A DNA stretch of 48,643 bases from Candidatus Micrarchaeota archaeon (lineage in GTDB: Archaea > Micrarchaeota > Micrarchaeia > Anstonellales > Bilamarchaeaceae). The stretch spans positions 1-48,643 of the forward strand of contig JACCLI010000011.1 of the NCBI GenBank assembly GCA_013425455.1, in the 5' to 3' direction. The translations under genes were made by a program, and so were the position numbers. This document shows, one piece after another, positions 11 to 38,553 of this stretch; the stretch's first letter is position 1; every line of letters starts with the position of its first letter. Under the pieces are notes generated by a model. The model was not told the origin of the DNA. It did not search any database and saw only the letters and a list, made by a program, of their open reading frames with translations.

Positions 11-128
11 GTGTCAGCAGCAGTCCGCGTTCCCGTCCGTAGGACAGTACAGGCAAAACCGTAAAGGGGCTTAACTTCCGAGTTCGAGATGGGATCGGGT
101 GTTTCCCCCTTCCTATGGCCGCTGACAA
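11..128 (-). rRNA. 5S ribosomal RNA (stand-alone, ends +/-3 nt)
   Basis: Reverse complement reads GUCAGCGGCCAUAGGAAGGGGGAAACACCCGAUCCCAUCUCGAACUCGGAAGUUAAGCCCC...GGACUGCUGCUGAC. It contains the conserved 5S block CCCGAUCCCAUCUCGAACUCGGAAGUUAAGC. The terminal helix I is GUCAGCGG/CUGCUGAC. Confidence 0.85.
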
Positions 129-9251: not shown

Positions 9252-9581
9252 TCACTCTATTGCGTTCAGGAGGTCCTGGTTCTTGTAGAACATGTACAGG
9301 AACGGTATGCCAAGCAGGAGGAACGAGAGCACGTACATCACAGTCGCCCCAAACATGAAGCCTGCCTTTCCCTTCGCAATGGCCGCCTTCTCCACATCCG
9401 AGAACAGCTTCCACAGGAAGTATATGTTCGCGAACGGGACCAGCATGAGGACCAAGCGTATTATCGGGTCGTAGTCCGCCTTTGTCGCCGCCTTGAGCTC
9501 CACCCACCAATTGTAGAGCAGGTAGAGGTTCACGAACGGTATGCACGCCATTACCAACGCCATTAACGGGCTTCTTGCCAT
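9252..9581 (-). CDS. Small membrane protein (DUF4234-like, tentative)
   Basis: Three hydrophobic helices. The motif NLYLLYNWW / ANIYFLWKLF occurs twice. Confidence 0.55.
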   Translation of the reverse strand: MARSPLMALVMACIPFVNLYLLYNWWVELKAATKADYDPIIRLVLMLVPFANIYFLWKLFSDVEKAAIAKGKAGFMFGATVMYVLSFLLLGIPFLYMFYKNQDLLNAIE

Positions 9582-9668: not shown

Positions 9669-10181
9669 GTGCAGAGGATGGGTGGCGGAAGAAACACTTT
9701 GGCCGCGGCACGCGTAGCCTTTGCGCTTATGGCCCCGGCGGTTGCGGGCTGCGCACATTCGCCCCGTGCCCCGATTTCTGAAATTTGCATCCCTCCTTCC
9801 GCATCCCTTTGGGGAGCGCGGGAACGTGTGGAAACCGCCGTGGGGAGGATAAACGAGCTGCAGGGCATTCTCCTGGACCGGCTTAGGAAGGTGGAGGGGG
9901 AGGTACAGGAGCTCGGGCTCTCGCTCGCATACAGCCGGCAGCCCCTGCGCTACTGGCTGGACACCGGGATGCCCAATGCAGAGGGAATGCTGATGGGCTT
10001 CAAGGAGAGCCTGGATATGCTGCGCGAAGGCATTTTGGAGGCCGGGGAAGATGCAGGAAGGATGAGGGAGCTCGCGCAGAGGGCCTGCGCCTCCCGGGAA
10101 TTTGCAGAAATAAGCTTTGTGAGCGCCATGGACTTACTGGACATGGTTTCCGCGGAGATAAGGGCTGTTGAAAAGGAATAA
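9669..10181 (+). CDS. Putative secreted lipoprotein, helical
   Basis: Signal-like N-terminus with lipobox-like APAVAGC. The remainder is predicted helical or coiled (ELQGILLDRLRKVEGEVQELG). Confidence 0.5.
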   Translation: MQRMGGGRNTLAAARVAFALMAPAVAGCAHSPRAPISEICIPPSASLWGARERVETAVGRINELQGILLDRLRKVEGEVQELGLSLAYSRQPLRYWLDTGMPNAEGMLMGFKESLDMLREGILEAGEDAGRMRELAQRACASREFAEISFVSAMDLLDMVSAEIRAVEKE

Positions 10182-10228
10182 GCGGGATTTAAAAACCGTC
10201 TGTGGTATGTTATAATAAAGGTAATAAT

Positions 10229-10870
10229 ATGAATACTCGCGCCATACATGAGATTGGAAACGGGACCAACCCTACGCTGCTAAAGGCGAACGAGGCGCGC
10301 TCCCGCGTCTACGAGGTTGTGCACTCCGGAAGGTGCAGGGGCGGATGCCTCAGGTACGCCCTTCTTGAGGATATGGAGACCGCAAAATCCCTGAATCCCC
10401 GCGAGGCGATAGGGGTGCTGCTCAACGTGGCGAACAGCGCGGTTGGCCATGGGATGGCTGAGCTTGCGAAGGACTGCGCCCGCGTGATGGTCGCCGCCTC
10501 CAAGGCTTCCGGCTGCGTGGATTTCGTGTGCATGATTTCTATTGAGAAGTTCGGGCTGGAGAGGGAAGAGGCGCTTGAGATTCTCGATAAATCTCCTTCT
10601 GAATTCGGGGAGGGGAGGAGCGTCCACCCGTCCGATGCGCAGGGGCTTTTCCTTGCGGTCGCACAGCTGGCGAAGGATATGGGCTACAGCAAGGTGGCGA
10701 AAGCCGCGGCTGAACTCATGCTGGTTGCCTCCAAGAAGGAGGGAAGCGCCGTATTCGCGGAGAGGCAGGCCCTTGACTACGGGCTTTCGCCCGAGGAAAT
10801 CAAGGAAGTGATCTCCAGGGCCCCGGCAAAGCCGGCTGAAAAAACCGACCTGATGGCTGGTCAAAGATGA
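10229..10870 (+). CDS. Hypothetical helical-repeat protein with two [FY]GLxxEE modules
   Basis: Internal duplication: AELAKDCARVMVAASKASG..EKFGLEREEALEIL and AKAAAELMLVASKKEGS..LDYGLSPEEIKEVI. ATG 10229 is preferred over GTG 10202. Confidence 0.5.
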   Translation: MNTRAIHEIGNGTNPTLLKANEARSRVYEVVHSGRCRGGCLRYALLEDMETAKSLNPREAIGVLLNVANSAVGHGMAELAKDCARVMVAASKASGCVDFVCMISIEKFGLEREEALEILDKSPSEFGEGRSVHPSDAQGLFLAVAQLAKDMGYSKVAKAAAELMLVASKKEGSAVFAERQALDYGLSPEEIKEVISRAPAKPAEKTDLMAGQR

Positions 10871-11370
10871 ACGCCCAAAAGTTAGTCGGAAGGCGCGAAT
10901 TCGTTCTCGGCGCCTTTTCTTCCGCAGTGCTTGTCGCTCTCCCCTCCTGCGTGAGGGGGAACGGGGGCCCAACCATAATTTCCGCCAATAATGGGAAGGA
11001 GATTCCTTTGTTTTTGGGAAGCAATGCGCTTAGCCAGGATTCCCTCGTGAACATGCGCAATGATGTTGTAAATTTGCGCGGGCTTCTCGAAAAGCTGATG
11101 GACGCGGCGAGGAGGGTGTCCAGCTACAGGGAGTTTGATTTCTCCGGGTGCAGGGGCACTGCACGCGCCTCCCTTGAGCTTGCCACGGATTTCATGAGTG
11201 AGAGCGAAAACCCCTCTCCCGAGAGGATGGATTACCTGAACAGGCGCTGGGAGTTCGTGCACTCACAACTCGTGGATTCCATAAGGAGGTACAACGAGGG
11301 GCTTTCTGGGATGGGCGTCGGGACCAGGACTCTCGGGCAGGAGTTCGGCGTGGATTTGAACGATATCTGA
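10867..11370 (+). CDS. Putative secreted lipoprotein (Tat-like RREF motif plus lipobox-like ALPSC)
   Basis: N-terminus MNAQKLVGRREFVLGAFSSAVLVALPSC. ATGA overlap with the upstream stop suggests translational coupling. Confidence 0.5.
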   Translation: MNAQKLVGRREFVLGAFSSAVLVALPSCVRGNGGPTIISANNGKEIPLFLGSNALSQDSLVNMRNDVVNLRGLLEKLMDAARRVSSYREFDFSGCRGTARASLELATDFMSESENPSPERMDYLNRRWEFVHSQLVDSIRRYNEGLSGMGVGTRTLGQEFGVDLNDI

Positions 11371-11433
11371 TTTTTTCCGGCACAAATTGCTGATAATTGC
11401 ACCCTGCTGCTCAGGCGTATTATGTTATTGCGA

Positions 11434-11489
11434 AGCATACCATTAAATATAACCAGCATACCTAACATAATAAGCATAAGGTGCATACA
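11434..11489 (+). promoter_or_regulatory. Phased AGCATA(C/A) direct repeats around a TATA-like box, upstream of the AbrB-like gene
   Basis: AGCATACC at 11434 and 11455, AGCATAAG at 11473, GCATACA at 11483. Spacing is 21 and 18 nt. They bracket CATTAAATATAACC (11441-11454). Confidence 0.35.
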
Positions 11490-11711
11490 ATGAAAGACGA
11501 TGAAACGACCAAAAAGCCGGAAAAGTATTCGAAAATGGTCCTTGTGAAGGGCTACCTGAGGCCTGACGGGACCTCCTATTATGTTTCGATACCCCGGGAG
11601 ATAAGGGATTCCCTCAACCTCAAAGGCGGCGAGTATTTCGTCATGAGGGCGAAGAAGGAGAAAAAGAGGATCATGATGAGGATCGTGGAGCTTGCCGCGG
11701 ACGAGGAATGA
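11481..11711 (+). CDS. AbrB/SpoVT-type DNA-binding protein
   Basis: YYVSIPREIRDSLNLKGGEYFVMRA matches the swapped-hairpin AbrB/SpoVT signature (IPxxIRxxLxLxxGD). Start is GTG 11481 or ATG 11490. Confidence 0.6.
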   Translation: MHTMKDDETTKKPEKYSKMVLVKGYLRPDGTSYYVSIPREIRDSLNLKGGEYFVMRAKKEKKRIMMRIVELAADEE

Positions 11712-11718
11712 AGCGGCA

Positions 11719-11740
11719 TTTTTTCTTTTATCTTATTCTT
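11719..11740 (+). terminator. Oligo-T tract (archaeal-type terminator candidate)
   Basis: TTTTTTCTTTTATCTTATTCTT lies directly after the stop of the AbrB-like gene. Confidence 0.35.
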
Positions 11741-11742
11741 AT

Positions 11743-11802
11743 ACGTTGTATAAGCGCTAATAATCTGATTTATTAGACTTTCTGCACAAATGAGAGCGGG
11801 GA
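11743..11802 (+). repeat. Conserved upstream element, copy 1 (core ATAATCTGATT..GCACAAA..CGGGG)
   Basis: Core 11760-11801 aligns with 12233-12276 at roughly three-quarters identity by eye with one 1-nt indel. Weaker similarity (TTGT..AAGCG) extends about 17 nt further upstream. Confidence 0.6.
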
Positions 11803-12179
11803 TGAACATGAATGAGGCAAGAACATTAATGCTGAAGGAAAAGGGCTTAAAAAAGCCTGCCGAGGTAAGGGCAATAAAGGACCCGGTTGCCAGGGCGTTC
11901 CAGGCTGCATTCATGGATACCGGGAAGGGGCTCAATGTGCTCGCCGGCAGGGCATGCCTGCGCAGGGCTGCCGAACTTGCCTTGCTGGAAGGCGACACCG
12001 AAACCGCACGTACGGTATTGGGAAGGGACATGAGAAGGGACGGGGAGGACATGATGAGGCCTTATGCCCGGGCAATAAAGCAGCTTGCGAAAACCGGGGA
12101 TACCGAAAACCTGGTGAACGTCCTGGATGCAATGCCGAGAGACGTTATTTCGCTGTGCAACTTCGCCATGTCAGCTTGA
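11790..12179 (+). CDS. Hypothetical helical protein A
   Basis: ORF follows upstream-element copy 1. ATGs at 11790, 11802 and 11808. The 11808 start gives MNEARTL, which parallels MTEARTL of the ORF at 13750. Confidence 0.5.
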   Translation: MRAGMNMNEARTLMLKEKGLKKPAEVRAIKDPVARAFQAAFMDTGKGLNVLAGRACLRRAAELALLEGDTETARTVLGRDMRRDGEDMMRPYARAIKQLAKTGDTENLVNVLDAMPRDVISLCNFAMSA

Positions 12180-12201
12180 TGGGAATGCCTCTCTCCCTGA
12201 A

Positions 12202-12212
12202 TTTTTTCTTTT
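12202..12212 (+). terminator. Oligo-T tract
   Basis: TTTTTTCTTTT lies about 20 nt after the stop at 12179. Confidence 0.3.
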
Positions 12213-12213
12213 A

Positions 12214-12277
12214 ACTTGTTGCAGAAGCGGAGATAATCTGATTAATAAGGATTTTGGCACAAAATAGGAACGGGGGT
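12214..12277 (+). repeat. Conserved upstream element, copy 2
   Basis: See copy 1. ATAATCTGATT at 12233-12243, GGCACAAA at 12257-12264, CGGGGG at 12271-12276, followed by ATG 12284. Confidence 0.6.
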
Positions 12278-12283
12278 ATTTCT

Positions 12284-12628
12284 ATGGCGAGTGTGACTAA
12301 ACCTGCTGAAACACCTGTGGGGAAGGCTTCTGGTGCGGAGGTTATCCGCCCGTCCGGTGAGCTCTGCCTGCGAAGAATCAGCGGAGGGGGAAGCAGCATG
12401 AAGGTTGTCCTAGAGGCCGCGATAATGCGCTACGGGCCAAACAGGAGGATAGAAAACACATTCGGATGCGAGGAGGATGAGATCAGGGATGCCGCCCGTA
12501 GCGTCGCAAAATGCTGGATTGCAAACGGGCTGAAGGAGAAGGCTCTGGCACTCATCAAGACTTATGGGCTGGATGCCGAAGAGGTGGCTCGTTCTTCTTC
12601 ACTGCCCCCTCAGCCGAAGAAGGGATAG
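12284..12628 (+). CDS. Hypothetical protein B with one YGLxxEE module
   Basis: ATG 12284 follows element copy 2 (ORF track TTG 12254). The C-terminal AKCWIANGLKEKALALIKTYGLDAEEVARS resembles the modules in the 10229..10870 protein. Confidence 0.45.
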   Translation: MASVTKPAETPVGKASGAEVIRPSGELCLRRISGGGSSMKVVLEAAIMRYGPNRRIENTFGCEEDEIRDAARSVAKCWIANGLKEKALALIKTYGLDAEEVARSSSLPPQPKKG

Positions 12629-12639
12629 GGGGATTTGAA

Positions 12640-13152
12640 ATGACACACAAGCAAGAACCGGATGGAAAGGGAGCGGGGAAGCCTGAGTTGCTGAGGCAAG
12701 CAGGCGCGGGGTTTGCGCCAAGGCCACCCTTCGGCGGAAGGGGGCGGCAGCCTGCAGGGGAGGACCGTGTTTCCCCCTACAGCGAGGAGAACGCCCTTCG
12801 CCTTGAGAAGGAGGGTAAATTTGCCGAGGCCGCGCATGAGTTCTGGGGCTCGGCGAGCGCGGAGCTTGGAAGAACCGTTCCGCCGAAAGAAAAGAATCTG
12901 CCCAAGGCGATTGGGCTGTTTGAGAAGGCCGCCTTCAACCATCTGCGCGCCAGGGATGGCAGGGCAGTGATGGCATTCATGGAAATAATGAGAATTGACA
13001 GGGGAATGGCGAGAGAGGCTGTCGGAAGGCTTACCAAATTCTGCGGCGAGGAGGCGGAGAGGGTAAAGGGTGAGAACCCTGGCGATGCCGCATACCTGCA
13101 AAGGGTTTCGGAGCATATAACCGGGCTAGCCGAGGGGAAAGCCGATAGATGA
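12640..13152 (+). CDS. Hypothetical helical (TPR/SNAP-like) protein C, paralog of D
   Basis: ATG 12640 lies 12 nt after the stop of B. Shares VSP..E[KE][ED]G[KR]xxEAxH[EK]F and RLxxFCxxEAxxxK blocks with the next ORF. Confidence 0.55.
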   Translation: MTHKQEPDGKGAGKPELLRQAGAGFAPRPPFGGRGRQPAGEDRVSPYSEENALRLEKEGKFAEAAHEFWGSASAELGRTVPPKEKNLPKAIGLFEKAAFNHLRARDGRAVMAFMEIMRIDRGMAREAVGRLTKFCGEEAERVKGENPGDAAYLQRVSEHITGLAEGKADR

Positions 13153-13739
13153 TGAAGGGGATTTGCATGGCTAACAACGAAATGATGAGGAGGATGGCCG
13201 CACAGGCGCGCAGGGTGGGCGCGGTTCCGCAGAGGCGAGGGGACATAATAGACTGCATAAGCCCGCAGGAGAGGGCAGAGATACGAAGGGTGCTTGCGGA
13301 AGGCGAGAACGTCCCGGTCTCCCCAGAAAGGGTTGGCGTGTGCCATGAGGAGGACGGCAGGCACGATGAAGCCGGGCATAAGTTCAGGCTGGCCGCAATA
13401 GCAGCAAAGAGAAAGGACTTCCAGAGGGGCTTAGCGCTCATTGAGCGTGCGGTGAGGAATTTCGCATTGGCTGGGAATGAATATAGTGCAACCTCGACAC
13501 TGCGCATCGCGTTTTGCTCGCTCCAGCCGGAGGAATCGGAAAGGATGGCGAGGAGGCTCGCCGAATTCTGCGAGATCGAAGCCGGGAAGGCGAAGAAAAC
13601 TCTCCCGCACCGCGCCGGCGGGCTGCTGAAGGTCGCCTCCTGCCTGCTGGACCCGTTCGATTACGCGATGGCGACTATGCTCAAGGCAAAGGGGGAGATA
13701 TTGATAGAGAACGCAAAAAGGACGGCGCAGAGCGGATAG
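13149..13739 (+). CDS. Hypothetical helical protein D, paralog of C
   Basis: ATGA overlap with the stop of C. VSPERVGVCHEEDGRHDEAGHKF and ARRLAEFCEIEAGKAK align with VSPYSEENALRLEKEGKFAEAAHEF and VGRLTKFCGEEAERVK of C. Confidence 0.55.
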   Translation: MMKGICMANNEMMRRMAAQARRVGAVPQRRGDIIDCISPQERAEIRRVLAEGENVPVSPERVGVCHEEDGRHDEAGHKFRLAAIAAKRKDFQRGLALIERAVRNFALAGNEYSATSTLRIAFCSLQPEESERMARRLAEFCEIEAGKAKKTLPHRAGGLLKVASCLLDPFDYAMATMLKAKGEILIENAKRTAQSG

Positions 13740-13749
13740 GTGTTCTGAG

Positions 13750-14247
13750 ATGACGGAAGCCAGAACTTTGGAAGCCGGAAAGGAAAGGCATTCCAGAGCT
13801 GCGGCTCCGCACAGAAGGGCGCCGCTTGAGAAGGCGCCCGGGAAAAATCTGCTTAAGGATGCGAAACGCTGGATGGATGATGCGCTCAGGCTGAGGCATA
13901 GGGATCCGTTGAGGGCAGCACGTGCCGCGGAGAGGGCGTTCGGGTTTTATTTCGCGGCCACGTGCACTGCCTTTTCAGAGAGGACAAAGGCGGACTGCCT
14001 GGTGGGCGCGGGAACCGCGCTTTCACTTGCCGCTGCGCTTTGCGAAGGAAGGGATCCGCGTAGGGCGGGGAGGCTGCATGAGGAGGCTGGGGACCATCTT
14101 TACAGGGGGGCGAGGCACGGGACGAAGCCCGAGGAGGAAGTGAGGAAGATGGCGCGGGAGCAGTTTGCGCGGGCTCTGGAACTGGGCGGGACTGTGCGCG
14201 TGCTGGAAAGGAAGGTTGCGATGTGCGACAGGGCGATTGGGGAGTGA
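13750..14247 (+). CDS. Hypothetical helical protein E (Ala/Arg-rich)
   Basis: Starts 11 nt after D. The N-terminus MTEARTL resembles protein A. RAGRLHEEAGDHLYRGA loosely resembles the C/D motif. Confidence 0.5.
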   Translation: MTEARTLEAGKERHSRAAAPHRRAPLEKAPGKNLLKDAKRWMDDALRLRHRDPLRAARAAERAFGFYFAATCTAFSERTKADCLVGAGTALSLAAALCEGRDPRRAGRLHEEAGDHLYRGARHGTKPEEEVRKMAREQFARALELGGTVRVLERKVAMCDRAIGE

Positions 14248-14258
14248 TTCTGTTTTTA
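14248..14258 (+). terminator. Oligo-T tract
   Basis: TTCTGTTTTTA lies immediately after the stop at 14247. Confidence 0.3.
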
Positions 14259-14322
14259 ACGCATAAATGTTATAAAAAGAGTAAAATAAAGGTTTTTAAA
14301 GCCCTCTAGGCATAATATTAAT

Positions 14323-15651
14323 GTGGACAAAGCCAGCGGATGCCCTAAAGAAATTGCACATTCTCCTAGCGCGAAGCATGCGGCAAAACCAGTGCGGGAT
14401 GGGTTCGAAAAGGAGGGTCCGCTTGTGGAATTGGGGAGTGGCAGGAAGAGGGAGATGCCGAAGTTGGTGAGGATGGATAGGGAAGGCTGCCTGGGGCAGG
14501 CACTCGTAATATGCACATCCAAGGGATTTGGGAAATTATGCGGAAGGGAACTGATGGCAGCCGGGATGGTGGAAACCATAGAATGCGTGCTCCATGATTC
14601 TCAGGACATTGACGTGTTCCATGTCCTTGAGCTGACAGAGTTTGCCAGAGAAACAGATGACGAAACGCTCGGCAGATTGCTCGAATTCGAAGGTTATGAA
14701 GGAAGGGCCAGGGATGCCATTTTTGACGTGTTGCTTGCACTTGCATGCCACCCGAATCCAGATACGCGGGAAGGGGCCTATGACGTGCTGGGTGCGTCCG
14801 GAAAGCCAGAAGCGCTTGAATTTCTGCTTGAACGCGCAAAGGAGGAGAGGGGGCCGCTGGTCAAGGTGCTTACGGCAATCGCGAACATAGCGAAAAAAAT
14901 GCCGCAGGAAAAAGAAAAGATTGTTGAGAGGCTGGAGCCCCTCCTTTCCGATGCTGGCAGTTCGGTGAGGAAGGAAACGGCGCTGATGTTCGTTGATTTT
15001 ACAGACAGATCCAAAATACTTGTGCTGAAAATGCTCGCCGGGGAACAGGATGGGGACGTGGCCATGGTCCTGTTTGAACACATCCCCATCGCAGGGTCGC
15101 ATGACCACAGCAGATACGCTGGATGCATTGCAATGGCGATAAACCGCCATATAAGTAAAAATCCGGAAATTGCATCGGCGTTCTTCAACCGGGTTGCGCC
15201 AAAAACCGACATGGAAAAGCTGGTGGGGAAGCTTACGCTGGAGTCGCGGAGGCTGCTGGCCGAACTTGGAAGACCCGATGGCAGGTTTGCATTCGGCTAC
15301 ATTGTGGCTTATGAACATTTCATGGCTGCTTGCGAAGGGCGCCTGATTGGGGCGGAAGTGATGGGAAACCGGTTCAAATACTTCCTGCTTCCCTCAGAGA
15401 GAATGGGCGATACGCCCGGGAGGGTGAATGAACGCGCAATCGCGGTTTCTGAAGATGTTCCTGAGAGGCTCCGCCCGATAGTGGCCTACCATGAATATGT
15501 TGAAGGGCAGACCGGCTCCCACAAGAAAGCAAAAAGGGCGGAAATCAAAGCCGTGCGCTCGCTCGGGCTGGAGCAGGAGTATGTGGAATGGCTAAGGGAA
15601 ATGGGGCCAAAAGTAAGGAAACCCGAGGAGTTCGAGGGAGCATTCCGGTAA
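14323..15651 (+). CDS. HEAT-repeat (PBS-lyase-type) protein with unassigned C-terminal domain
   Basis: HEAT-like repeats: NPDTREGAYDVLGASGKPEALEFLLERAK, LEPLLSDAGSSVRKETALMFVDF. The C-terminal roughly 150 aa (..IVAYHEYVEGQTGSHKKAKRAE..) are unassigned. GTG start. TATA-like GGTTTTTAAAG lies about 25 nt upstream. Confidence 0.6.
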   Translation: MDKASGCPKEIAHSPSAKHAAKPVRDGFEKEGPLVELGSGRKREMPKLVRMDREGCLGQALVICTSKGFGKLCGRELMAAGMVETIECVLHDSQDIDVFHVLELTEFARETDDETLGRLLEFEGYEGRARDAIFDVLLALACHPNPDTREGAYDVLGASGKPEALEFLLERAKEERGPLVKVLTAIANIAKKMPQEKEKIVERLEPLLSDAGSSVRKETALMFVDFTDRSKILVLKMLAGEQDGDVAMVLFEHIPIAGSHDHSRYAGCIAMAINRHISKNPEIASAFFNRVAPKTDMEKLVGKLTLESRRLLAELGRPDGRFAFGYIVAYEHFMAACEGRLIGAEVMGNRFKYFLLPSERMGDTPGRVNERAIAVSEDVPERLRPIVAYHEYVEGQTGSHKKAKRAEIKAVRSLGLEQEYVEWLREMGPKVRKPEEFEGAFR

Positions 15652-16419: not shown

Positions 16420-16575
16420 CGGGTATTCACATGGCAGGACCTTACGGAAAGCCGCTGTTTTTCTCGAAGCTCCAGATGATACCGGTAAAAGAAGAGCCGG
16501 TTGCGGAGCAGAAGCCAGAAACCGGAGGCAGGGAGCCGGAAGCTGGAAGCCGCAAACGGAAAACAAAGTGATTCT

Positions 16576-17616: not shown

Positions 17617-18785
17617 TACTCATGAGGAAAGTCGCAATAGTCGGAGTGGGAATGACCAAGTTCGGGGAGCACTGGGAAAGGGGCTTCCGCGACCTTGTTA
17701 CCGAAGCCGGAGTAAAGGCCCTGGAAGATGCGGGGATGTCCGGCGCGGAGATTTCCGCTGGATATGTGGGAACGATGGCCGCTGGGAGCCTTATAGGGCA
17801 GGAGCACACCGGCGCTTTGATTGCGGACTATATGGGATTGAATCCTATTCCAATTACGCGTGTGGAAGGGGCTTGCGCCTCGGGAAGCCTCGCTCTGAGG
17901 CAGGGGCTGATGGCCGTCGCATCCGGGATGCATGATGTAGTGGTGGTTGGGGGGGTGGAGAAGATGACCGACCTGGACACCGCGGAAGTGAGCGAAATTC
18001 TGGGCGGAGCCGGAGACCAGGAGTGGGAGCTTTTCCTAGGTGCTACCTTCCCGGCCCTTTATGCGATGATGGCGAGGAGGTACATGCACGATTACGGGGC
18101 CACGGAGGAGATGCTCGCCTCGGTTGCGGTAAAAAACCATAAGCACGGGAGCATGAACCCCCTTGCGCAATTCCAGAACGAGATTACCATACAGGATGTA
18201 TTGGACTCGAAAATGGTTTCGGATCCGCTTAAGATATTGGACTGCTCGCCCCTTACCGACGGGGCGGCAGCGGTTGTGCTCGCGCCGCTTGATATTGCAA
18301 AGAAATACACGGATACGCCGATAGAGATTGTGGCAAGCGCACAGGCAAGCGACACCATTACGCTTCATAACAGGGATTCCATTACCGGGGTGAAGGCTGC
18401 GCGCATAGCCGCCCAGGCCGCATACAAGCAGGCGGGGGTTTCCCCTTCGCAGATCAAAGTTGCGGAGGTGCACGACTGCTTCACGATTGCGGAACTCATG
18501 GCAATAGAAGATTTGGGCTTCTTCCCGAAAGGGAAGGGCGGGGAGGCCTCCCTGAATGGGGAGACGCAAATAGGCGCGAAGATCCCGATTAATACGAGCG
18601 GCGGGCTGAAGGCTGCGGGGCACCCTGTTGGGGCCACGGGAATAAAACAAGCGGTGGAGATTGCCTGGCAGTTGCAGGGCGAGGCGGGGAAGAGGCAGGT
18701 TTCCGGCGCGGACATCGGGCTTTCCCACAACGTGGGCGGAAGCGGCGCTACCGCCGTAGTGCACATATACAAGAGGGTGAACTAG
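17613..18785 (+). CDS. Acetyl-CoA acetyltransferase (archaeal thiolase)
   Basis: [12 protein letters not shown], active-site [10 protein letters not shown]-terminal [14 protein letters not shown] and [12 protein letters not shown] overlap with the HMGCS stop (ATG 17622 is an alternative start). Confidence 0.9.
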
Positions 18786-19190
18786 ATGAAGGAATCCATT
18801 CCACTCACATGGAGAAAGATACCTGACAGGTACAGGCTGCTCGGGAGCGTATGCAAGAACTGCAACGGCTACTATTTCCCTGCGAGGCACGTGTGCCCGA
18901 AATGCAGGAGGAAAGGGAAGGTTGACGGCTATCAGTTCTCTGGGAGGGGGAGGGTTTTCTCCTTTACGGAAATCCACGCTCCTCCCGCAGGCTTTGAGGA
19001 CCAGATTCCCTACGTGATGGCGATTGTGGAGCTGGCGGAGGGGGCGCGCTGCACCGCCGAGATCGTGGATGTGCTGAGCAAGGATGTGAAGATAGGGGAC
19101 GAGGTGGAGATGGTATTCAGGAAAATCCAGAGCCACGACCCGGAGGGCCTCATCCACTACGGGTTCAAGTTCAAGAAAGTGAAGAAGTAG
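18786..19190 (+). CDS. DUF35 OB-fold/zinc-ribbon protein (thiolase-HMGCS scaffold)
   Basis: Zn ribbon CKNCNGYYFPARHVCPKC followed by an OB-fold-like C-terminus. Starts 1 nt after the thiolase stop. Confidence 0.85.
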   Translation: MKESIPLTWRKIPDRYRLLGSVCKNCNGYYFPARHVCPKCRRKGKVDGYQFSGRGRVFSFTEIHAPPAGFEDQIPYVMAIVELAEGARCTAEIVDVLSKDVKIGDEVEMVFRKIQSHDPEGLIHYGFKFKKVKK

Positions 19191-19249
19191 GTTCCACAAA
19201 ATCCACCTAAATAAACCTTATTTAATTCTTTCCATGCATAATATTTACA

Positions 19250-24771: not shown

Positions 24772-25857
24772 TTACCTTTTGACTATGAATATTACGTCTC
24801 CGTCCTGGAGCACGTGGTCCAATCCCACTCTCTGCCCCTGGAACTTGGCGCTCTTTCCCCATATTAATGCGTATTTGAAGTCCTTGAGGAAAGCCTTCGG
24901 GAGCTTCCTGCACATGGCTTCGATAGTGGAGCCGGTCTTCATTATCATCGGTTCGTTCCATTTGATTTCCCCTGTGCGCGGCTTCGTGTACACCTTCATA
25001 AACCCCAATTTTTCGTATATGGCTTTCTTGACTTCTTCGATTCCAGCTCCCCTGTCCGCGGAGATTCCAACCGCGCCCGTTGGGAAGCCCGGCGGGATTC
25101 CTCCGGTGAGGTCCACCTTGTTCACTACGACGAGCGCCTTTGAATATACCCTGTTCGCCTCCAGGGCGTCAATCAAATCGTCCGTCGTATAATTGTCCCC
25201 GAAGGTAATGTCCCCGTTATGGAATCCGTATTCGTTGAGGACAGAGATTATCGCCTGCGGGGTGAGACGGGTGAGCTTCACCGCTGAGTGTATCCTTATG
25301 CCGCCCTTTATCCCCTTCTTTACGCTTATGCGGGGGGGATGGCCCTCCAGCCTTATCCCCACTTCCCGCAGCTCCTTTGTAATCACGTCATACTGCCAGG
25401 GGTTTAGCGGCTCGAGAAGGATTAGGATGAGGTCCGCCTTCCGGGCTACGGAAAGGATTTCCTTTCCCCTCCCCTTCCCCACCTGTGCGCCCGCTATTAT
25501 CCCGGGAAGGTCAAGGATTTGGATGCTCGCGCCCCCGTATTCCAGTATTCCGGGGATGCATTCCAGCGTCGTGAACTCGTAGGCGGCTATCTTTGATTTC
25601 GCATTTGTAAGTTTAGTAATTAGGGTTGACTTGCCCACGCTCGGGAACCCGACCATCACCACGGTCGCATCCCCCTCCTTCCTTATGTCGAAGCCTCCGC
25701 CGCTAATGGAGGACTTCTTGATTGCGCGGTCCACCCTCTCGCGCTTAAACCGGGCGACCTTCGCGAGCAGGAGGCCTATGTGATGCTCTGTCCCCTTGTG
25801 CCGCTTCGTATTGCGGATCTCGTCCTCTAATGCTTTTATCTTCTCGTCTACTCCCAT
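24772..25857 (-). CDS. Developmentally regulated GTP-binding protein (DRG) homolog with TGS domain
   Basis: G1 GFPSVGKSTL, G3 DLPGII, G4 NKVDL, C-terminal TGS (VLQDGDVIFIVKR). Start taken at ATG 25857 (MGVDEKIKALEDEI). The longer ORF to 26034 would overlap the divergent gene. Confidence 0.9.
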   Translation of the reverse strand: MGVDEKIKALEDEIRNTKRHKGTEHHIGLLLAKVARFKRERVDRAIKKSSISGGGFDIRKEGDATVVMVGFPSVGKSTLITKLTNAKSKIAAYEFTTLECIPGILEYGGASIQILDLPGIIAGAQVGKGRGKEILSVARKADLILILLEPLNPWQYDVITKELREVGIRLEGHPPRISVKKGIKGGIRIHSAVKLTRLTPQAIISVLNEYGFHNGDITFGDNYTTDDLIDALEANRVYSKALVVVNKVDLTGGIPPGFPTGAVGISADRGAGIEEVKKAIYEKLGFMKVYTKPRTGEIKWNEPMIMKTGSTIEAMCRKLPKAFLKDFKYALIWGKSAKFQGQRVGLDHVLQDGDVIFIVKR

Positions 25858-25951
25858 CGCTTCAGATATCGGAGATAAGGTTTTAATTCTCCTCTCCCAT
25901 TCAAAGCGCATGTGCAACATCGTCCTCGAAGGTACCCGCGGCGTAGTGGAC

Positions 25952-28180
25952 ATGTCGAAATGCCCTTTTGAGTTTGCATCCGCTGAATTCCTGAACTTCC
26001 ACCTGAAGGACCTCTCGACCATAGAGGAGCCCATAAAGACGCTCCGTTATGAGGAGGAAATCATTGTGGAATTGGATGAGGAGAAGACATACATCCTCGT
26101 GGAATACGCCTCTGTAATCAAGCAGATAGAGGGGATCATGCTCAACAAGGAGGTGTACGGGCTTGAGCAGGACGAGAATTATGCGAAGAGGAAGGAGGCA
26201 ATCCGAAAATTCTACGAATTCATATTCATGAACCCGCTAATGGCGGAGAAAATCCTCAAGGACTATAAGGAGCCGGCCGCCGAGCGCTCCGTGTTCGCAA
26301 AGGGGCAGCAGAACTTCAAGGCTTGGATAAACGGGATAATGAAGAGGTTTACTGAAACCCATCTCTTCCAATTGACTAAGGAGGTTGGGGACCTCCGGGC
26401 TGCGTTCCTTTCCCTTGCCGGCCTCCGGACAATGGGGTTCGTCTCATCCCTCCTTCTGGAGATACCCCAGAATGCGAAGACATTGGCAACCCCGGACGCA
26501 AAGTATGACCTCAGGTATGGTGTTTCCACGCAGATTTACGAAATTCCCGGAGGGGAGGCCTACCTCTACGTGCAGGAGAACAAGGGAATAAACGAACTTC
26601 CGGCCGAGCTCTCCGCGATGATGAAAACGCTCATAGAGGCGCAGATGAAGGAAACTTTCCCAGAGGAACAATTTGACATTCTCTATCAGTTGAAGACCCG
26701 CGAGTACAGGCAGTATTTCCTTGATGATGCAATCAAAAAAGGAATAGAAATTACGCCCCACCAGGCCCTGATAATGGGGCGTGAAGTGGCGAACTGGATT
26801 GTCGGCCTTGGTTCGCCGATTGAGAACCTCGCCCTGGACAATGAGAATATCACGGACATCTATATCGACTCGGAGAACTCTCCATTGTACATAGAGCACG
26901 CGAAATTCGGCATTTGCCATACCTTGTACAGGTATAGCCGTCCATTGCTGGAAAGGGCCTTCAGGAACATAGTCCTCTCGGAAAAGGGAAGGAAATTCGA
27001 CGACATGAACCCTGTGGTGGACGTGGTGGTTAAGAGGCACTCCATGAGGACGCACCTCCAGAGGCCCCCCGCGACCTTCGGGCCGCTCGTTGGCGCATTG
27101 AGGATAATGCAGGAGGCGCCCTTCACCTACCCGCAATATTTGTATTTCAAATCCTTCAACCCGTTCTTCGCTGGCTACGACGATGTGATGGTTGGGCTTG
27201 GCTGCAGCGAGGCGGTCCTCGGGCTAAAGGGAGTTGGTAAGACCGCGTTTACCGCCGCTAAAATTACCGCGATTGGAACGAAGAAGAGGATCATTCCCAT
27301 CCAGGATATCCAGGAAATCCCTGTGAGCGCTTTCAGGAAGCGCGGCTTCCATATAGGTGCTGCAAAAGTTAAATCCGGGATAGACGAAGGGCCCACGTAT
27401 AAGCCCACGGGCGAACTGGACCTTGTGCAGATGGCGAATGCATTGCTCAGGATGGGTGATGCGGCGCTCGTGATTAACGAAATCCGTTCGCGCAGCGCGG
27501 TGCAGGGAGTGATTAATCTCCTTAACACGCAGCCCGGGGTATTCCTTCTCTATAACCTGCACGCCGAATCCCTCAAGGATGTGCAGGACCGCCTCGAACT
27601 GGTGTTCGGGATTCCTTCCGCTTCCATGTTTGCGACCGACAGGTACACGTTCCTAAAGAAATTGAGGTTCGGGAGGAAGGGCAGGGTATACCGCGTGCTC
27701 GGATACGAGTATGAGAGCGACCCGGCAAACAGGCAGTTCGTGGAGGTCTTCAAATACAGGAGGGGCCCGACCATAGACACGTGCAGTTTGGAGCCCAAGT
27801 TCATCAAGAACCCGGAAGCAACCATGTGGGACTTCGACAAGGTGGATATGGGCAAACTGCAGGGGCACCTTGATTTGCAGTTCATTCCCCCGGTGCTTGT
27901 GCGCAGGAGCGAGGAGAGCGGAATTGCGCCCGAGCAGTACATCCTGCAGGCGTTCCTCAAGGGGAAGATGTACTACAAGGCATACAAGATGAGCGTTGAC
28001 ACGAATGACAAGCTATTGCGCGAGATAGATTTCGTGGTCAAATTGAACACCGCGACCAACCGCATGCTTGCGGACCTCGAGCAGGAGAACGGGACCGTGG
28101 ATTACAAGGTCGCGCAGGCAAGGCTGGAGGAAATCTTCAAGGAGCAGTACAGGGCGGAGATTGCCTCTAGGACCGCTTAG
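25952..28180 (+). CDS. Divergent secretion-superfamily ATPase (FlaI/VirB11/PilB-like, T2SSE fold) with long N-terminal extension
   Basis: Domain order typical of FlaI/VirB11. N-domain ..DVVVKRHSMRTHLQRPP..GALRIM. Walker A GLKGVGKT. IPIQDIQEIP (compare IEDxxEL). Walker B/Asp box AALVINEIRSRSAV. His box NLHAES. Start is uncertain (ATG 25910 or 25952). Confidence 0.7.
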   Translation: MSKCPFEFASAEFLNFHLKDLSTIEEPIKTLRYEEEIIVELDEEKTYILVEYASVIKQIEGIMLNKEVYGLEQDENYAKRKEAIRKFYEFIFMNPLMAEKILKDYKEPAAERSVFAKGQQNFKAWINGIMKRFTETHLFQLTKEVGDLRAAFLSLAGLRTMGFVSSLLLEIPQNAKTLATPDAKYDLRYGVSTQIYEIPGGEAYLYVQENKGINELPAELSAMMKTLIEAQMKETFPEEQFDILYQLKTREYRQYFLDDAIKKGIEITPHQALIMGREVANWIVGLGSPIENLALDNENITDIYIDSENSPLYIEHAKFGICHTLYRYSRPLLERAFRNIVLSEKGRKFDDMNPVVDVVVKRHSMRTHLQRPPATFGPLVGALRIMQEAPFTYPQYLYFKSFNPFFAGYDDVMVGLGCSEAVLGLKGVGKTAFTAAKITAIGTKKRIIPIQDIQEIPVSAFRKRGFHIGAAKVKSGIDEGPTYKPTGELDLVQMANALLRMGDAALVINEIRSRSAVQGVINLLNTQPGVFLLYNLHAESLKDVQDRLELVFGIPSASMFATDRYTFLKKLRFGRKGRVYRVLGYEYESDPANRQFVEVFKYRRGPTIDTCSLEPKFIKNPEATMWDFDKVDMGKLQGHLDLQFIPPVLVRRSEESGIAPEQYILQAFLKGKMYYKAYKMSVDTNDKLLREIDFVVKLNTATNRMLADLEQENGTVDYKVAQARLEEIFKEQYRAEIASRTA

Positions 28181-29871: not shown

Positions 29872-29977
29872 AAAACAGCCGTTTGGAGGGTTATGATTAT
29901 GGTAAAGAGATTCGCTCTTTGCGCCGATGTATGGGGCACGGAGCGAAGAAGGGGGGTATCCCCCCTCTTCTTCCAAT

Positions 29978-30075
29978 CGGGCCCGGTGGGATTTGAACCC
30001 ACGACCTACATCTTAGGAGGATGCCGCGCTATCCAGGCTGCGCTTCCCGGCGCAATTTCTTGCGCATACGGGCCC
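29978..30075 (-). tRNA. tRNA-Arg (anticodon CCU) with 23-nt insertion (putative non-canonical intron, about 30044..30066)
   Basis: Reverse complement: GGGCCCG UA [UGCGCAAGAAAUUGCGCCGGGAA] GCGC AGCCUGGAUA GCGC G GCAUC CUCCUAA GAUGU AGGUC GUGGG UUCAAAU CCCAC CGGGCCC G. With the bracketed 23 nt removed this is a perfect 75-nt cloverleaf. Confidence 0.8.
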
Positions 30076-36394: not shown

Positions 36395-36459
36395 CGTATG
36401 TAACTACTGCCTAGAGGGTGCGGGAACGGCAACCGCACGGGCAAAAGAGAGGTGGTCAA

Positions 36460-37707: not shown

Positions 37708-37800
37708 TTGGAAAGGATATAGGTGCGTCAGGAGTACGTGCAAAGGGTTGCAAAGTGAAGTGGGGGAGGGTCAGAATGACCGGTAAAAATGGGGCAATAG

Positions 37801-37911
37801 TTTCGCAGTGGCGAAACTGTGCGCATTTTTCCCGCTGGAAAAATAGCGAGGGTGCTCCCTCCGCGTTTTTCCGAGGGAATGATACCCGGGAAGTTTGTGG
37901 TTGTAGAATGA
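37801..37911 (+). pseudogene. Remnant of a cupredoxin-domain gene (3' end duplicate)
   Basis: Frame reads FRSGETVRIFPAGKIARVLPPRFSEGMIPGKFVVVE*. The last 12 codons (37876-37911) match the last 12 codons of the 36460..37707 gene, with 6 differences that are all synonymous third-position changes. There is an in-frame stop at 37798 and no ATG before 37879. Confidence 0.45.
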
Positions 37912-37915
37912 TGAG

Positions 37916-38509: not shown

Positions 38510-38553
38510 GAAAGGTGCAAAAAAATAATAAGGAGAACGGAGAGGTGAAGGCC

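What the first reader, a model, noticed from the sequence alone, without database searches (positions are those of the whole stretch)
9669..15651. Same-strand island of about 10 ORFan genes between housekeeping blocks
**What is there**
- From 9.7 to 15.7 kb every gene is on the plus strand.
- None has a recognisable enzymatic motif.
- The genes are two lipobox/Tat-like secreted helical proteins, a repeat protein between them, an AbrB-like DNA binder, five small Ala/Arg/Glu-rich helical proteins, and a 442-aa HEAT-repeat protein.

**Signs of organisation**
- Several junctions are ATGA overlaps or gaps of about 12 nt or less (10867, 12640, 13149, 13750). This indicates operons.
- Oligo-T tracts and a duplicated upstream element delimit at least three transcription units.

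**Why it matters**
- The island is flanked by deoxyhypusine synthase and the mevalonate-entry operon.
- It is the best candidate in the window for a lineage-specific multi-gene system of unknown function, combining secreted components, a regulator and a cytoplasmic scaffold.
Basis: partly seen in the sequence, partly recalled or inferred. Interest (0 to 1): 0.7.

Follow-up and report, generated by a model that had tools for sequence, protein, structure and literature searches.

The report
Fast-evolving gene cluster in a Micrarchaeota genus
The region is a real ten-gene cluster found in only one small group of Micrarchaeota (tiny DPANN archaea); it encodes two exported lipoproteins, a DNA-binding regulator and a rapidly changing set of helical-repeat proteins, its function is unknown, and it is ordinary for these gene-poor, hypothetical-rich genomes.

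Summary
Ten plus-strand genes fill 9678-15651.

The organism is a Micrarchaeota (DPANN) archaeon. In the outgroup clade, deoxyhypusine synthase (DHS) and the downstream HTH gene are separated by as little as 113-127 bp. In about ten genomes of one narrow clade the same gap holds this cluster in a conserved order:
- lipoprotein p1, (p2), Tat-lipoprotein p3, AbrB regulator p4, (p5), p6;
- then 1-6 copies of one TPR-like family (p7, p8, p9);
- then sometimes the HEAT protein p10, and in some relatives a toxin-antitoxin pair.

Main findings:
- **Divergence.** Island proteins diverge far faster than the flanks (33-62% against 85-93% identity; dN/dS 0.15-0.42 against 0.03-0.16). p4 and the promoters are strongly conserved.
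- **Origin.** Composition matches the host. I found no integrase, no flanking repeats and no viral relatives, so it is not a recent mobile element.
- **Restriction.** The TPR-like family is confined to this clade among 5.8 billion proteins.
- **p10.** It carries an uncharacterised C-terminal domain with invariant H-E...H...E residues.

No enzyme or known system is recognisable. The best reading is a regulated, envelope-linked protein-interaction module that gains and loses genes. Interest is moderate to low.

The parts
9252..9581 (-). m109: small membrane protein, weakly DUF4234-like. It belongs to the variable region between DHS and the plus-strand cluster.
   Evidence: Present in the window, L003, L007, L086 and L091; absent in L005, L008 and L017. 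DUF4234 E = 0.018. Highest 19-residue hydropathy 2.04.
9678..10181 (+). p1: predicted Sec-type lipoprotein. Signal peptide ends in the lipobox-like VAGC; the mature part is about 140 aa.
   Evidence: The stretch ALMAPA..(G)C and two further Cys are conserved in homologues 36-52% identical. Family present in 5 loci. No library hit.
10229..10870 (+). p2: cytoplasmic protein made of two ~72-aa repeats. Its stop overlaps the p3 start (ATGA).
   Evidence: Internal repeat z = 17. Homologues only in L086 and a truncated 93-aa copy in L003. Upstream 48 nt are 92% identical to L003.
10867..11370 (+). p3: predicted Tat-type lipoprotein with a twin-arginine motif (RREFV), a hydrophobic stretch and an invariant Cys. 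It is followed by T6.
   Evidence: The twin arginine is present in 5 of 6 homologues and the Cys is invariant. The family is in 9 of 9 loci that cover this position. Identities are 21-64%.
11405..11485 (+). Conserved p4 promoter and 5'UTR. An inverted repeat, TATTATGTTA / TAACATAATA, flanks a TATA-like TTAAATATAA.
   Evidence: Inverted repeat I1. Mean column identity 87% over about 125 nt in six genomes; in the one far pair measured (window vs L003) dS is about 1 or more.
11490..11711 (+). p4: 73-aa SpoVT/AbrB-type DNA-binding protein, the likely regulator.
   Evidence: TIGR01439 28.3 bits, PF04014 24.2 bits. 89-99% identical wherever the island has it. dN/dS 0.05. Relatives at 51-68% identity in other contexts.
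11718..11790 (+). Copy 1 of the duplicated cassette (T-rich terminator plus promoter), upstream of p5.
   Evidence: Repeat families D1 and D2; alignment A10.
11790..12179 (+). p5: small basic protein. The true start may be ATG 11808. Found only in the closest strains.
   Evidence: Homologues only in L086, L087 and L098. dN/dS 0.40. Not related to the TPR-like family by hhalign.
12201..12283 (+). Copy 2 of the cassette. It is the conserved array promoter: ATAATCTGATTAATAA...TTTTGGCACAAA...GGGG, then ATG.
   Evidence: Present upstream of the first gene of the p6/TPR-like array in the nine loci aligned in A10; 22 invariant columns.
12284..12628 (+). p6: small basic protein with a conserved ~60-aa core ending in KTYGL.
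   Evidence: Family in 8 of 10 loci, 33-61% identical. No library hit.
12640..13152 (+). p7: divergent member of the TPR-like family (T family).
   Evidence: Iterative HMM E = 2e-6. blastp against p8 6e-5. Only 63% identical to its counterpart in the otherwise ~90-99% identical strain L087.
13149..13739 (+). p8: T-family member with the Arg-rich N-terminal leader.
   Evidence: HMM 4e-17. Leader HMM 1.3e-11. 39% identical to its L003 homologue.
13750..14247 (+). p9: T-family member with a disordered basic leader (residues 1-30) and three helical hairpins. It is followed by T5.
   Evidence: AlphaFold2 pLDDT 84, six helices. Foldseek best matches are TPR and designed repeat proteins, E 0.015 or weaker. 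15 homologues in 5.8 billion proteins, all of this clade.
14323..15651 (+). p10: ARM/HEAT solenoid (about residues 45-330) plus a conserved C-terminal 'AYHE' domain (about residues 320-430).
   Evidence: HEAT_2 43.8 bits. Model pLDDT 75-90 in the solenoid and low in the C-terminal part. Foldseek matches importin-alpha, PP2A-A and YibA at E about 5e-3. C-terminal domain: 54 representatives, invariant H390, E391, H400, E407, no Pfam or PDB match.

Best explanation
The region is a vertically inherited accessory gene cluster restricted to roughly one genus of Micrarchaeota (DPANN). It grew inside the short divergent spacer between the DHS gene and the HTH-XRE / HMG-CoA-synthase operon.

**What it encodes**
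- Two exported, probably lipid-anchored proteins: p1 by the Sec route and p3 by the Tat route.
- p2, a two-repeat protein translationally coupled to p3.
- p4, a SpoVT/AbrB-type DNA-binding protein whose own promoter carries an inverted repeat.
- An array of small basic cytoplasmic proteins (p5, p6, p7-p9) behind a highly conserved promoter that is duplicated in this genome.
- p7-p9 belong to one family of three-hairpin TPR-like proteins. Most members, including p8 and p9, carry a disordered Arg-rich N-terminal leader.
- p10, an ARM/HEAT solenoid with an uncharacterised C-terminal domain.

**Shown**
- Gene reality, family relationships and conserved order.
- Conserved cis elements.
- Fast but constrained protein evolution.
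- Gain and loss of array members.

**Inferred**
- p4 regulates itself and perhaps the array promoter.
- The TPR-like and HEAT proteins, which have no recognised enzymatic domain, act as protein-binding adaptors or chaperones.
- The module works at or through the cell envelope, together with the two lipoproteins.
- Its rapid turnover reflects an interaction under changing pressure, such as a host cell or a virus.
For: **Site and order**
- In the outgroup clade DHS and the HTH gene are 113-127 bp apart in L012 and L014; five other loci of that clade also keep DHS within about 0.1-1.1 kb (L010, L011, L013, L015, L016), with a single ORF in the gap of L010, L013 and L015.
- The cluster sits at the same site and in the same order in the window, L003, L005, L007, L008, L017, L086/L087, L089/L090 and L091, and in the fragments L097-L105.

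**The genes are real**
- Positive coding scores for all ten genes.
- dN/dS of 0.15-0.42, against 0.03-0.16 in the flanks and 0.05 for p4.

**Not foreign DNA**
- GC3 is 0.59-0.73 in the island and 0.64-0.69 in the flanks.

**Export signals and regulation**
- Lipobox and twin-arginine motifs are conserved in homologues.
- Lipoproteins and the lipidation enzyme AliA are reported as prevalent in DPANN (PMC12462473).
- The p4 promoter is 87% identical across six genomes and carries an inverted repeat.
- The array promoter has 22 invariant columns across 11 sequences from nine loci.

**The TPR-like family**
- 28 members in 10 loci.
- The p9 model has three helical hairpins.
- The leader HMM hits only island proteins: E at or below 1.7e-6, with the next best at 0.03, among 17,661 ORF segments.

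**Turnover**
- The close strains (window against L086/L087, dS about 0.1-0.2) differ by two genes.
- L005 carries a fusion of p9 and p10. L003 and L086 carry truncated copies.
Against: - No experiment or known homologue ties any of p1-p3 or p5-p9 to a function.
- I found no evidence that the lipoproteins and the cytoplasmic array interact.
- The genes form five or six transcription units, and several members are dispensable.
- Tat and lipoprotein-processing genes could not be checked, because only 48 kb of the genome is in hand and none is in the window.
- p4 homologues elsewhere sit in unrelated contexts, so its link to the array promoter is only positional.
- TPR and HEAT folds are generic, and the fold matches are not significant (best E 0.015 and 0.0055).
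- The leader HMM was built from the very proteins it recovers, so its specificity is partly circular.
Confidence: 0.55

Rival explanations
1. It is a decaying integrated virus or plasmid. On this reading, a mobile element inserted between DHS and the HTH gene and has since lost its integrase.
For: - The genes are small, same-strand and tightly packed, and most lack known homologues.
- An AbrB-type regulator is typical of archaeal mobile elements (my own knowledge).
- Toxin-antitoxin modules sit at the same site in relatives.
- The junction holds unrelated genes in the outgroup locus L018.
Against: - No integrase was found, the only tRNA gene is 14 kb away, and no flanking direct repeats were found.
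- GC and GC3 equal the host's.
- PHROGs gives no hit at E below 0.03.
- No relatives of p3, p4, p6, p9 or the p10 domain were found in 2.9 million viral contigs.
- No significant structural match to viral proteins (best E 0.27).
- Site and order are the same in about ten genomes; in the far pair measured (window vs L003) synonymous sites are near or beyond saturation.
Confidence: 0.08
2. It is a defence or conflict island. The fast-evolving repeat proteins would be sensors, immunity proteins or anti-defence proteins. p10's C-terminal domain would be an effector, either metal-dependent or HEPN-like through its R-x5-H motif.
For: - An AbiEii pair lies in L003, and MNT/HEPN pairs lie in L005 and L017, inside the same island.
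- p10 has weak PADLOC hits: OloA 0.0024 and HEAT_CxxC_PD-DEXK 0.011.
- Tandem diversified paralogues and rapid gain and loss.
- p10's C-terminal domain has invariant H-E...H...E.
Against: - No PADLOC hit has an E-value below 0.002.
- The window's own island has no toxin-antitoxin pair, nuclease, ATPase or other recognisable effector.
- dN/dS stays well below 1.
- The C-terminal domain has no Pfam or PDB relative, so no activity can be assigned.
Confidence: 0.15
3. It is a toxin-immunity-like arrangement. The exported proteins p1 and p3 would be contact-dependent effectors, and the tandem TPR-like proteins would be an array of immunity proteins.
For: - Exported proteins sit next to a variable tandem array of small diversified paralogues.
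- This layout recalls polymorphic toxin loci with orphan immunity genes (my own knowledge).
Against: - p1 and p3 are about 140-aa proteins with no toxin domain.
- The array proteins are basic (pI 9-10) and share a leader, which is not a known property of immunity proteins.
- p4 and p6 sit between the putative toxins and the array.
- The array has its own promoter.
Confidence: 0.07
4. It is a collection of unrelated, weakly constrained lineage-specific genes that merely accumulate in a permissive intergenic site, with no common function.
For: - Content is variable, and unrelated genes (histidine kinase, radical SAM, AsnC) occupy the same junction in L018.
- There are several transcription units.
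- dN/dS is 3-10 times that of the flanks.
Against: - The order p3-p4-p6-array is kept across the nine or so loci that cover it; dS is about 1 or more in the far pair measured.
- Promoters are more conserved than the coding sequences.
- Gene overlaps suggest translational coupling.
Confidence: 0.15

Closest known systems
SpoVT/AbrB (swapped-hairpin) transcription regulators and MazE/VapB-type antitoxins
   Same: p4 matches the AbrB domain models over residues 31-64. It is small and basic, and it sits behind a promoter with an inverted repeat, as autoregulated AbrB-type regulators do.
   Different: No toxin partner lies next to it, and it has no C-terminal toxin-binding tail, only about 10 residues after the domain. 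Its targets are unknown.
Archaeal Sec and Tat lipoproteins (lipobox proteins lipidated by AliA/AliB)
   Same: p1 and p3 have an N-terminal signal with a lipobox-like motif and a conserved Cys. p3 also has a twin-arginine motif. Lipoproteins are reported as common in DPANN (PMC12462473).
   Different: That paper reports that archaea other than halobacteria use mainly Sec for lipoproteins, so a Tat-lipoprotein here would be the less common kind. The p3 lipobox (L-P-S-C) has Pro at position -2, which departs from the consensus. Neither export nor lipidation has been tested.
TPR-type helical-hairpin adaptors (Sgt1, Sec72, FKBP TPR domains, SNAPs, the MIT domain of Vps4)
   Same: The p9 model is three stacked helical hairpins, and its best fold matches are TPR proteins. 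The family profile's best PDB sequence match is the Vps4 MIT domain.
   Different: All matches are non-significant (E 0.015 to 0.3). No TPR Pfam model reaches its threshold. The conserved Arg-rich leader and the tandem, clade-restricted expansion have no counterpart in those families.
Bacterial and archaeal HEAT_2 / PBS-lyase-type HEAT-repeat proteins (e.g. E. coli YibA) and ARM solenoids such as importin-alpha
   Same: p10 residues 128-181 match HEAT_2. The model is a solenoid, and Foldseek matches importin-alpha, PP2A-A and YibA.
   Different: It is fused to a ~110-aa C-terminal domain with invariant H-E...H...E. That domain has no Pfam or PDB relative and occurs in only 54 representative clusters. 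Of ten clusters checked for a source name, the two that carry an organism name are DPANN archaea.

Membership tests
SpoVT/AbrB DNA-binding domain family (p4) | Sequence match to the swapped-hairpin AbrB domain at the curated threshold | tested here: met
   TIGR01439 scores 28.3 bits, equal to its cut-off of 28.3. PF04014 scores 24.2 against a cut-off of 24.7, just below. A source names a 90%-cluster member as an AbrB/MazE/SpoVT protein.
Type II toxin-antitoxin antitoxin (MazE/VapB type) (p4) | An adjacent toxin gene in the same operon | tested here: not met
   p4 is flanked by a 119-nt and a 78-nt spacer with its own T-rich terminator. Its neighbours p3 and p5 match no toxin family.
Archaeal/bacterial lipoproteins (p1, p3) | N-terminal signal peptide ending in a lipobox [LVI][ASTVI][GAS]C with a conserved Cys | tested here: inconclusive
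   p1 has V-A-G-C, which fits the consensus. p3 has L-P-S-C, with Pro at position -2 off consensus. The Cys is invariant in both families. No signal-peptide predictor was available.
Archaeal/bacterial lipoproteins (p1, p3) | Lipid modification and signal-peptide cleavage at the Cys | not testable with these tools
   This needs an experiment. AliA/AliB genes were not found in the 48-kb window.
Tat substrates (p3) | Twin-arginine motif (S/T-R-R-x-F-L-K) before the hydrophobic stretch, with Tat machinery in the genome | tested here: inconclusive
   The twin arginine (R-R-E/A-F/L) is present in 5 of 6 homologues. TatA and TatC could not be looked for beyond the window.
Tetratricopeptide repeat (TPR) proteins (p7-p9) | Match to a TPR sequence model at threshold | tested here: not met
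   The best hit is TPR_12 at E = 0.02 and 15.5 bits, against a cut-off of 30.1, and only for p8.
Tetratricopeptide repeat (TPR) proteins (p7-p9) | Stacked helix-turn-helix hairpins forming a right-handed superhelix | tested here: inconclusive
   The p9 model has six helices in three hairpins (pLDDT 84). TPR proteins head the fold search, but with E of 0.015 or weaker and TM-scores of 0.35-0.56.
HEAT-repeat proteins (p10) | Match to a HEAT repeat model above the gathering score, and a solenoid fold | tested here: met
   HEAT_2 scores 43.8 bits against a cut-off of 27.7. The model is a helical solenoid.
Integrated archaeal virus / plasmid | Integrase, attachment-site repeats (often at a tRNA), and capsid or replication genes or viral homologues | tested here: not met
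   No integrase family hit. No flanking direct repeats. The only tRNA gene is at 29977. No relatives in viral contigs.
Known anti-phage defence systems (PADLOC) | Significant match of at least one gene to a defence-system model | tested here: not met
   Only p10 is hit, and weakly: E 0.0024 to 0.022 at 10-15 bits, through its HEAT repeats.

The most novel reading that the evidence does not exclude
The tandem TPR-like proteins would be a diversifying set of effectors of an episymbiotic DPANN archaeon. Their shared Arg-rich N-terminal leader (MAxxRTxEA...GRAPRRRG) would be a targeting signal. It would be recognised by a common partner, for example the importin-alpha-like ARM/HEAT solenoid p10. 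The proteins would be handed to an envelope apparatus that includes the lipoproteins p1 and p3, for delivery to the host cell. That would be a new leader-dependent protein-delivery system in archaea.
Probability: 0.05. Interest if true: 0.8.

Novelty: new member of a known kind. Interest (0 to 1): 0.35.

Why it matters
DPANN archaea have tiny genomes in which much of the gene content is uncharacterised, and how they interact with their hosts is largely unknown. This cluster is a clean, well-delimited example of clade-specific genes that:
- are certainly real;
- evolve several times faster than their neighbours;
- gain and lose members between close strains;
- keep their regulator and promoters almost unchanged.

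It supplies three concrete handles for experiments: the AbrB protein with its conserved operator-like repeat, the conserved array promoter, and a family-specific N-terminal leader. It also defines several new protein families (p1, p3, p6, the TPR-like family and the 'AYHE' domain). None of this yet points to a new mechanism.

Tried and rejected
**Library and similarity searches that gave nothing**
- Pfam, NCBIfam, PHROGs and PADLOC on all ten proteins returned only AbrB and HEAT.
- Profile searches of the PDB with the TPR-like family, p10 and the p10 C-terminal domain gave nothing significant. The best hits were the Vps4 MIT domain at E = 0.31 and an ArsR-type regulator at E = 1.1.
- Foldseek with the p9 and p10 models gave only generic TPR and ARM/HEAT matches.
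- Rfam found nothing in the island.

**Relationships between island families**
- hhalign found no relationship between p1 and p3, p5 and the TPR-like family, p6 and the TPR-like family, or p2 and p6, beyond a shared 'YGL..EE' peptide.

**Mobile-element tests**
- Viral-contig scans for p3, p4, p6, p9 and the p10 domain were all negative.

- The bacterial promoter and terminator scan is not informative for an archaeon.
- My first gene picker, which simply took the longest ORFs, chose antisense ORFs. I replaced it with a codon model trained on the flanks.

**Ideas considered and dropped or left as leads**
- The R-x5-H in p10's C-terminal domain as a HEPN motif: only a resemblance, with no supporting match.
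- The similarity of p10 to importin-alpha as evidence that it binds the basic leaders: this is a generic solenoid similarity (TM about 0.3).

**Literature**
- Two literature searches found no description of this cluster.

Full report

Yes. The ORF list shows ten plus-strand ORFs between 9669 and 15651. A gene caller applied to an identical public contig reports the same ten genes and nothing on the other strand. I trained a codon model on the flanking housekeeping genes. It gives every one of the ten a positive score (+0.10 to +0.50 per codon; flanks +0.31 to +0.37). It gives a negative score to each of the ten antisense ORFs of 100 aa or more.

The sequence shows the following junctions:
- ATGA overlaps at 10867 and 13149;
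- an 11-nt gap before p7, whose ATG is at 12640;
- a 10-nt gap before p9.

Five of the seven T5+ runs lie in the 15% of the island that is intergenic. Four directly follow the stops of p3, p4, p5 and p9; the fifth also lies in the p9-p10 spacer. The duplicated upstream element is real: 46 nt at 76% identity plus a 20-nt T-rich piece at 90% identity, upstream of p5 and p6.

The protein descriptions also hold.
- p1 and p3 have lipobox-type signals, and p3 has a twin-arginine motif. Both features are conserved in homologues.
- p2 contains two repeats of about 72 aa (z = 17).
- p4 matches AbrB/MazE models.
- p10 matches HEAT_2.
- No enzymatic family is hit in Pfam, NCBIfam, PHROGs or PADLOC.

**2. 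Whose genome, and what is at this site elsewhere?**

The nearest relatives of p10 and p9 are named Candidatus Micrarchaeota. I scanned one genome per species with the downstream neighbour, a 229-aa HTH_3 protein. This returned 80 loci, nearly all labelled Micrarchaeota or a subgroup of it.

In the next clade out (HTH protein 74-77% identical), the DHS gene lies 113-127 bp from the HTH gene in L012 and L014. In L010, L013 and L015 a single ORF sits in between. In L018 there are four unrelated genes: a PAS histidine kinase, a DUF4234 protein, an AsnC-type regulator and a radical SAM enzyme.

In the clade whose HTH protein is 90-93% identical, the gap holds 3.5-7.6 kb of plus-strand genes. So the cluster fills what is elsewhere a short divergent spacer. 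Its GC (0.50-0.62) and GC3 (0.59-0.73) match the flanks.

**3. Is the content conserved?**

I collected the islands of ten loci: the window, L086, L087, L003, L005, L007, L008, L017, L089/L090 and L091. I grouped their 91 proteins by iterative HMM searches. The order is the same throughout:

m109 (minus strand) | p1 - (p2) - p3 - p4 - (p5) - p6 - TPR-like family x 1-6 - (p10) - (toxin-antitoxin pair).

- p3 is present in all nine loci that cover its position. p6 is in eight of ten. The TPR-like family is in all.
- p4 is in seven loci and is 89-99% identical wherever it is found.
- A metagenome scan with p4 recovered nine more fragments with the same order (L097-L105). It also recovered about 70 loci with 51-68% identical AbrB proteins in unrelated contexts, several next to ABC-transporter genes.

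**4. How do the genes evolve?**

| Comparison | Island genes | Flanking genes |
|---|---|---|
| Window vs L003, protein identity | 33-62% | 85-93% |
| Window vs L003, dN/dS | 0.29-0.38 | 0.04-0.08 |
| Window vs L086, dN/dS | 0.15-0.42 | 0.03-0.16 |

The m109 membrane gene, which belongs to the variable region, is intermediate against L003 (80% identity, dN/dS 0.20).

Against the close strain L086, dS is about 0.1-0.2. There p4 stands out with dN/dS of 0.05. The genes are therefore under purifying selection, but a much weaker one, or one mixed with diversifying pressure.

Content also turns over quickly:
- L086 and L087 have two extra genes (193 and 152 aa) between p6 and p8.
- p7 is only 63% identical to its L087 counterpart, although the neighbouring genes are about 90-99% identical.
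- L005 carries an in-frame fusion of the N-terminal part of p9 with the C-terminal domain of p10.
- L003 and L086 carry truncated copies.

**5. Non-coding elements are the most conserved part.**

The roughly 125 nt upstream of p4 are 87% identical across six genomes; in the far pair I measured (window vs L003) synonymous sites are near or beyond saturation. They contain a 10-nt perfect inverted repeat, TATTATGTTA / TAACATAATA, on either side of a TATA-like box.

A second element, ATAATCTGATTAATAA-n-TTTTGGCACAAA-n-GGGG-n-ATG, precedes the first gene of the cytoplasmic array in every locus aligned. It is present twice in the window, before p5 and before p6, and has 22 invariant columns in 11 sequences. 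Its layout fits an archaeal promoter: a TATA box, a start site about 25 nt downstream, and a short leader with a G-rich ribosome-binding site. This places the p6 start at ATG 12284. The assignment of these parts is my inference. No Rfam family matches.

**6. What are the proteins?**

*The TPR-like family.* It has 28 members, among them p7, p8 and p9. The AlphaFold2 model of p9, built from 16 sequences, is confident (pLDDT 84). It shows six helices in three hairpins after a disordered basic N-terminus of 30 residues. The best fold matches are TPR proteins and designed helical repeats, but none is significant. The best sequence match in the PDB is the MIT domain of Vps4 at E = 0.31. So the fold is TPR-like and membership of the TPR family is not shown.

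Many members share an N-terminal leader, MAxxRTxEA...GRAPRRRG. So does a separate 150-152-aa family. An HMM of this leader hits only island proteins in 1.36 Mb of related sequence: E at or below 1.7e-6, with the next best at 0.03. The hits are the seed proteins and their orthologues, so this shows specificity but not independent recurrence.

Searches of 5.8 billion proteins with p9 and with a family profile found 15 and 16 proteins. Those that carry a source name or whose contigs I examined belong to this clade.

*p10.* It is an ARM/HEAT solenoid followed by a C-terminal domain of about 110 aa. An exhaustive profile search found 54 representatives of that domain (18 at E of 1e-10 or better). 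It is always C-terminal, behind HEAT repeats, pentapeptide repeats or an HTH. H390, E391, H400 and E407 are invariant across a trimmed set of 25 relatives; across all 55 hits only H390 and E391 are strictly invariant and the other two are near-invariant. It has no Pfam or PDB relative. Of ten clusters I looked up, the only two carrying an organism name are Micrarchaeota and Woesearchaeota. One relative again lies beside DHS. This is the only candidate catalytic or metal-binding motif in the island. It is a lead, not a finding.

*The rest.* p1, p2, p3, p5 and p6 have no detectable relatives outside the clade in the material I could search. They are not related to one another by profile comparison.

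**7. Explanations.**

*Best reading (confidence 0.55).* The region is a vertically inherited accessory cluster restricted to about one genus. It is regulated through p4 and the conserved promoters. Its products are exported lipoproteins plus cytoplasmic protein-binding repeat proteins. The repeat family gains and loses members. An envelope-linked role in an interaction under changing pressure is my inference. It rests on the lipoproteins, the absence of enzymes, the fast evolution, and the episymbiotic lifestyle known for cultivated Micrarchaeota (my own knowledge).

*Decayed mobile element (0.08).* This is unlikely. I found no integrase, no flanking repeats, no nearby tRNA gene and no viral relatives. 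Composition matches the host, and the site and order are fixed.

*Defence or conflict island (0.15).* Toxin-antitoxin pairs in relatives and the evolutionary pattern hint at this, but no model matches.

*Toxin-immunity layout (0.07) and a mere accumulation of unrelated genes (0.15).* I could not exclude either.

**8. Verdict.**

The cluster is a new example of a familiar kind, namely clade-specific, fast-evolving accessory genes in a symbiont-type genome. It contains several new protein families and unusually well-conserved regulatory DNA. Nothing found here is very surprising to a specialist, so I rate its interest as moderate to low.

Noticed in passing
window 15277-15648 (p10 residues 319-442); relatives P0023-P0073: An uncharacterised C-terminal domain of about 110 aa, with consensus '..G..F.Y.L....GR....FV...PE....IVAYHE..E...SH..A...E..LG..EY..W'. 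H, E, H and E are invariant in a trimmed set of 25 relatives. It is fused to HEAT repeats, pentapeptide repeats or an HTH, and it has no Pfam or PDB relative. Of ten clusters looked up, the two that carry an organism name are DPANN archaea.
   Followed up: partly
L005 10001-10828: A 275-aa gene that fuses the N-terminal two-thirds of a p9-type TPR-like protein in frame to the C-terminal domain of p10. It is evidence of a deletion that joined two island genes.
   Followed up: partly
L005 10894-11855 and L017 8959-9920; L003 8443-9740 (minus strand): Toxin-antitoxin pairs sit at the 3' end of the island in relatives: MNT/HEPN, 82-89% identical between two otherwise divergent islands, and an AbiEii pair. 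The window has none.
   Followed up: partly
L106-L176 (e.g. L114 9986-10225, L161, L172): AbrB proteins 51-68% identical to p4 are common in peat and wetland metagenome contigs, outside any such island. Several lie just upstream of an ABC-transporter ATPase and permease pair.
   Followed up: partly
window 16431-16571 (+): A 46-aa ORF lies between the HTH_3 gene and HMG-CoA synthase. It is called as a gene of 43-55 aa at the same place in all relatives examined, and it has no family match.
   Followed up: no
window 36418-40770 (+): A heavy-metal (probably copper) cluster: an HMA-DsbD_2 membrane protein, a cupredoxin-like protein and an HMA P-type ATPase.
   Followed up: no
window 25796-28180 (+) and 44922-46586 (-): Two large ORFs (794 and 554 aa) with coding signal but no Pfam match at E of 1e-5 or better.
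   Followed up: no
window 18036-19199 (-), 10280-10972 (-), 14536-15318 (-): Long antisense ORFs of up to 387 aa lie opposite real genes. Those inside the island that I scored have negative coding scores. They are a trap for ORF-length-based gene calling in this genome.
   Followed up: yes
L094 5614-9886: In a more distant Micrarchaeota contig, a p10 relative (P0030, 432 aa) lies beside DHS, and two DHS paralogues flank an EamA transporter gene.
   Followed up: no
window 12-126 (-) and 29977-30054 (-): A 5S rRNA gene lies at the very start of the window, and a tRNA-Arg(CCT) gene lies at 29977-30054. Neither is near the island.
   Followed up: no
window 12640-12760; L087 2235; L007 7547: A second shared N-terminal segment, MxKQEPxxKDGxGKxPE..R, occurs on proteins of two different island families: p7 (TPR-like) and a p6-type protein. 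This suggests that N-terminal pieces are exchanged between paralogues.
   Followed up: no
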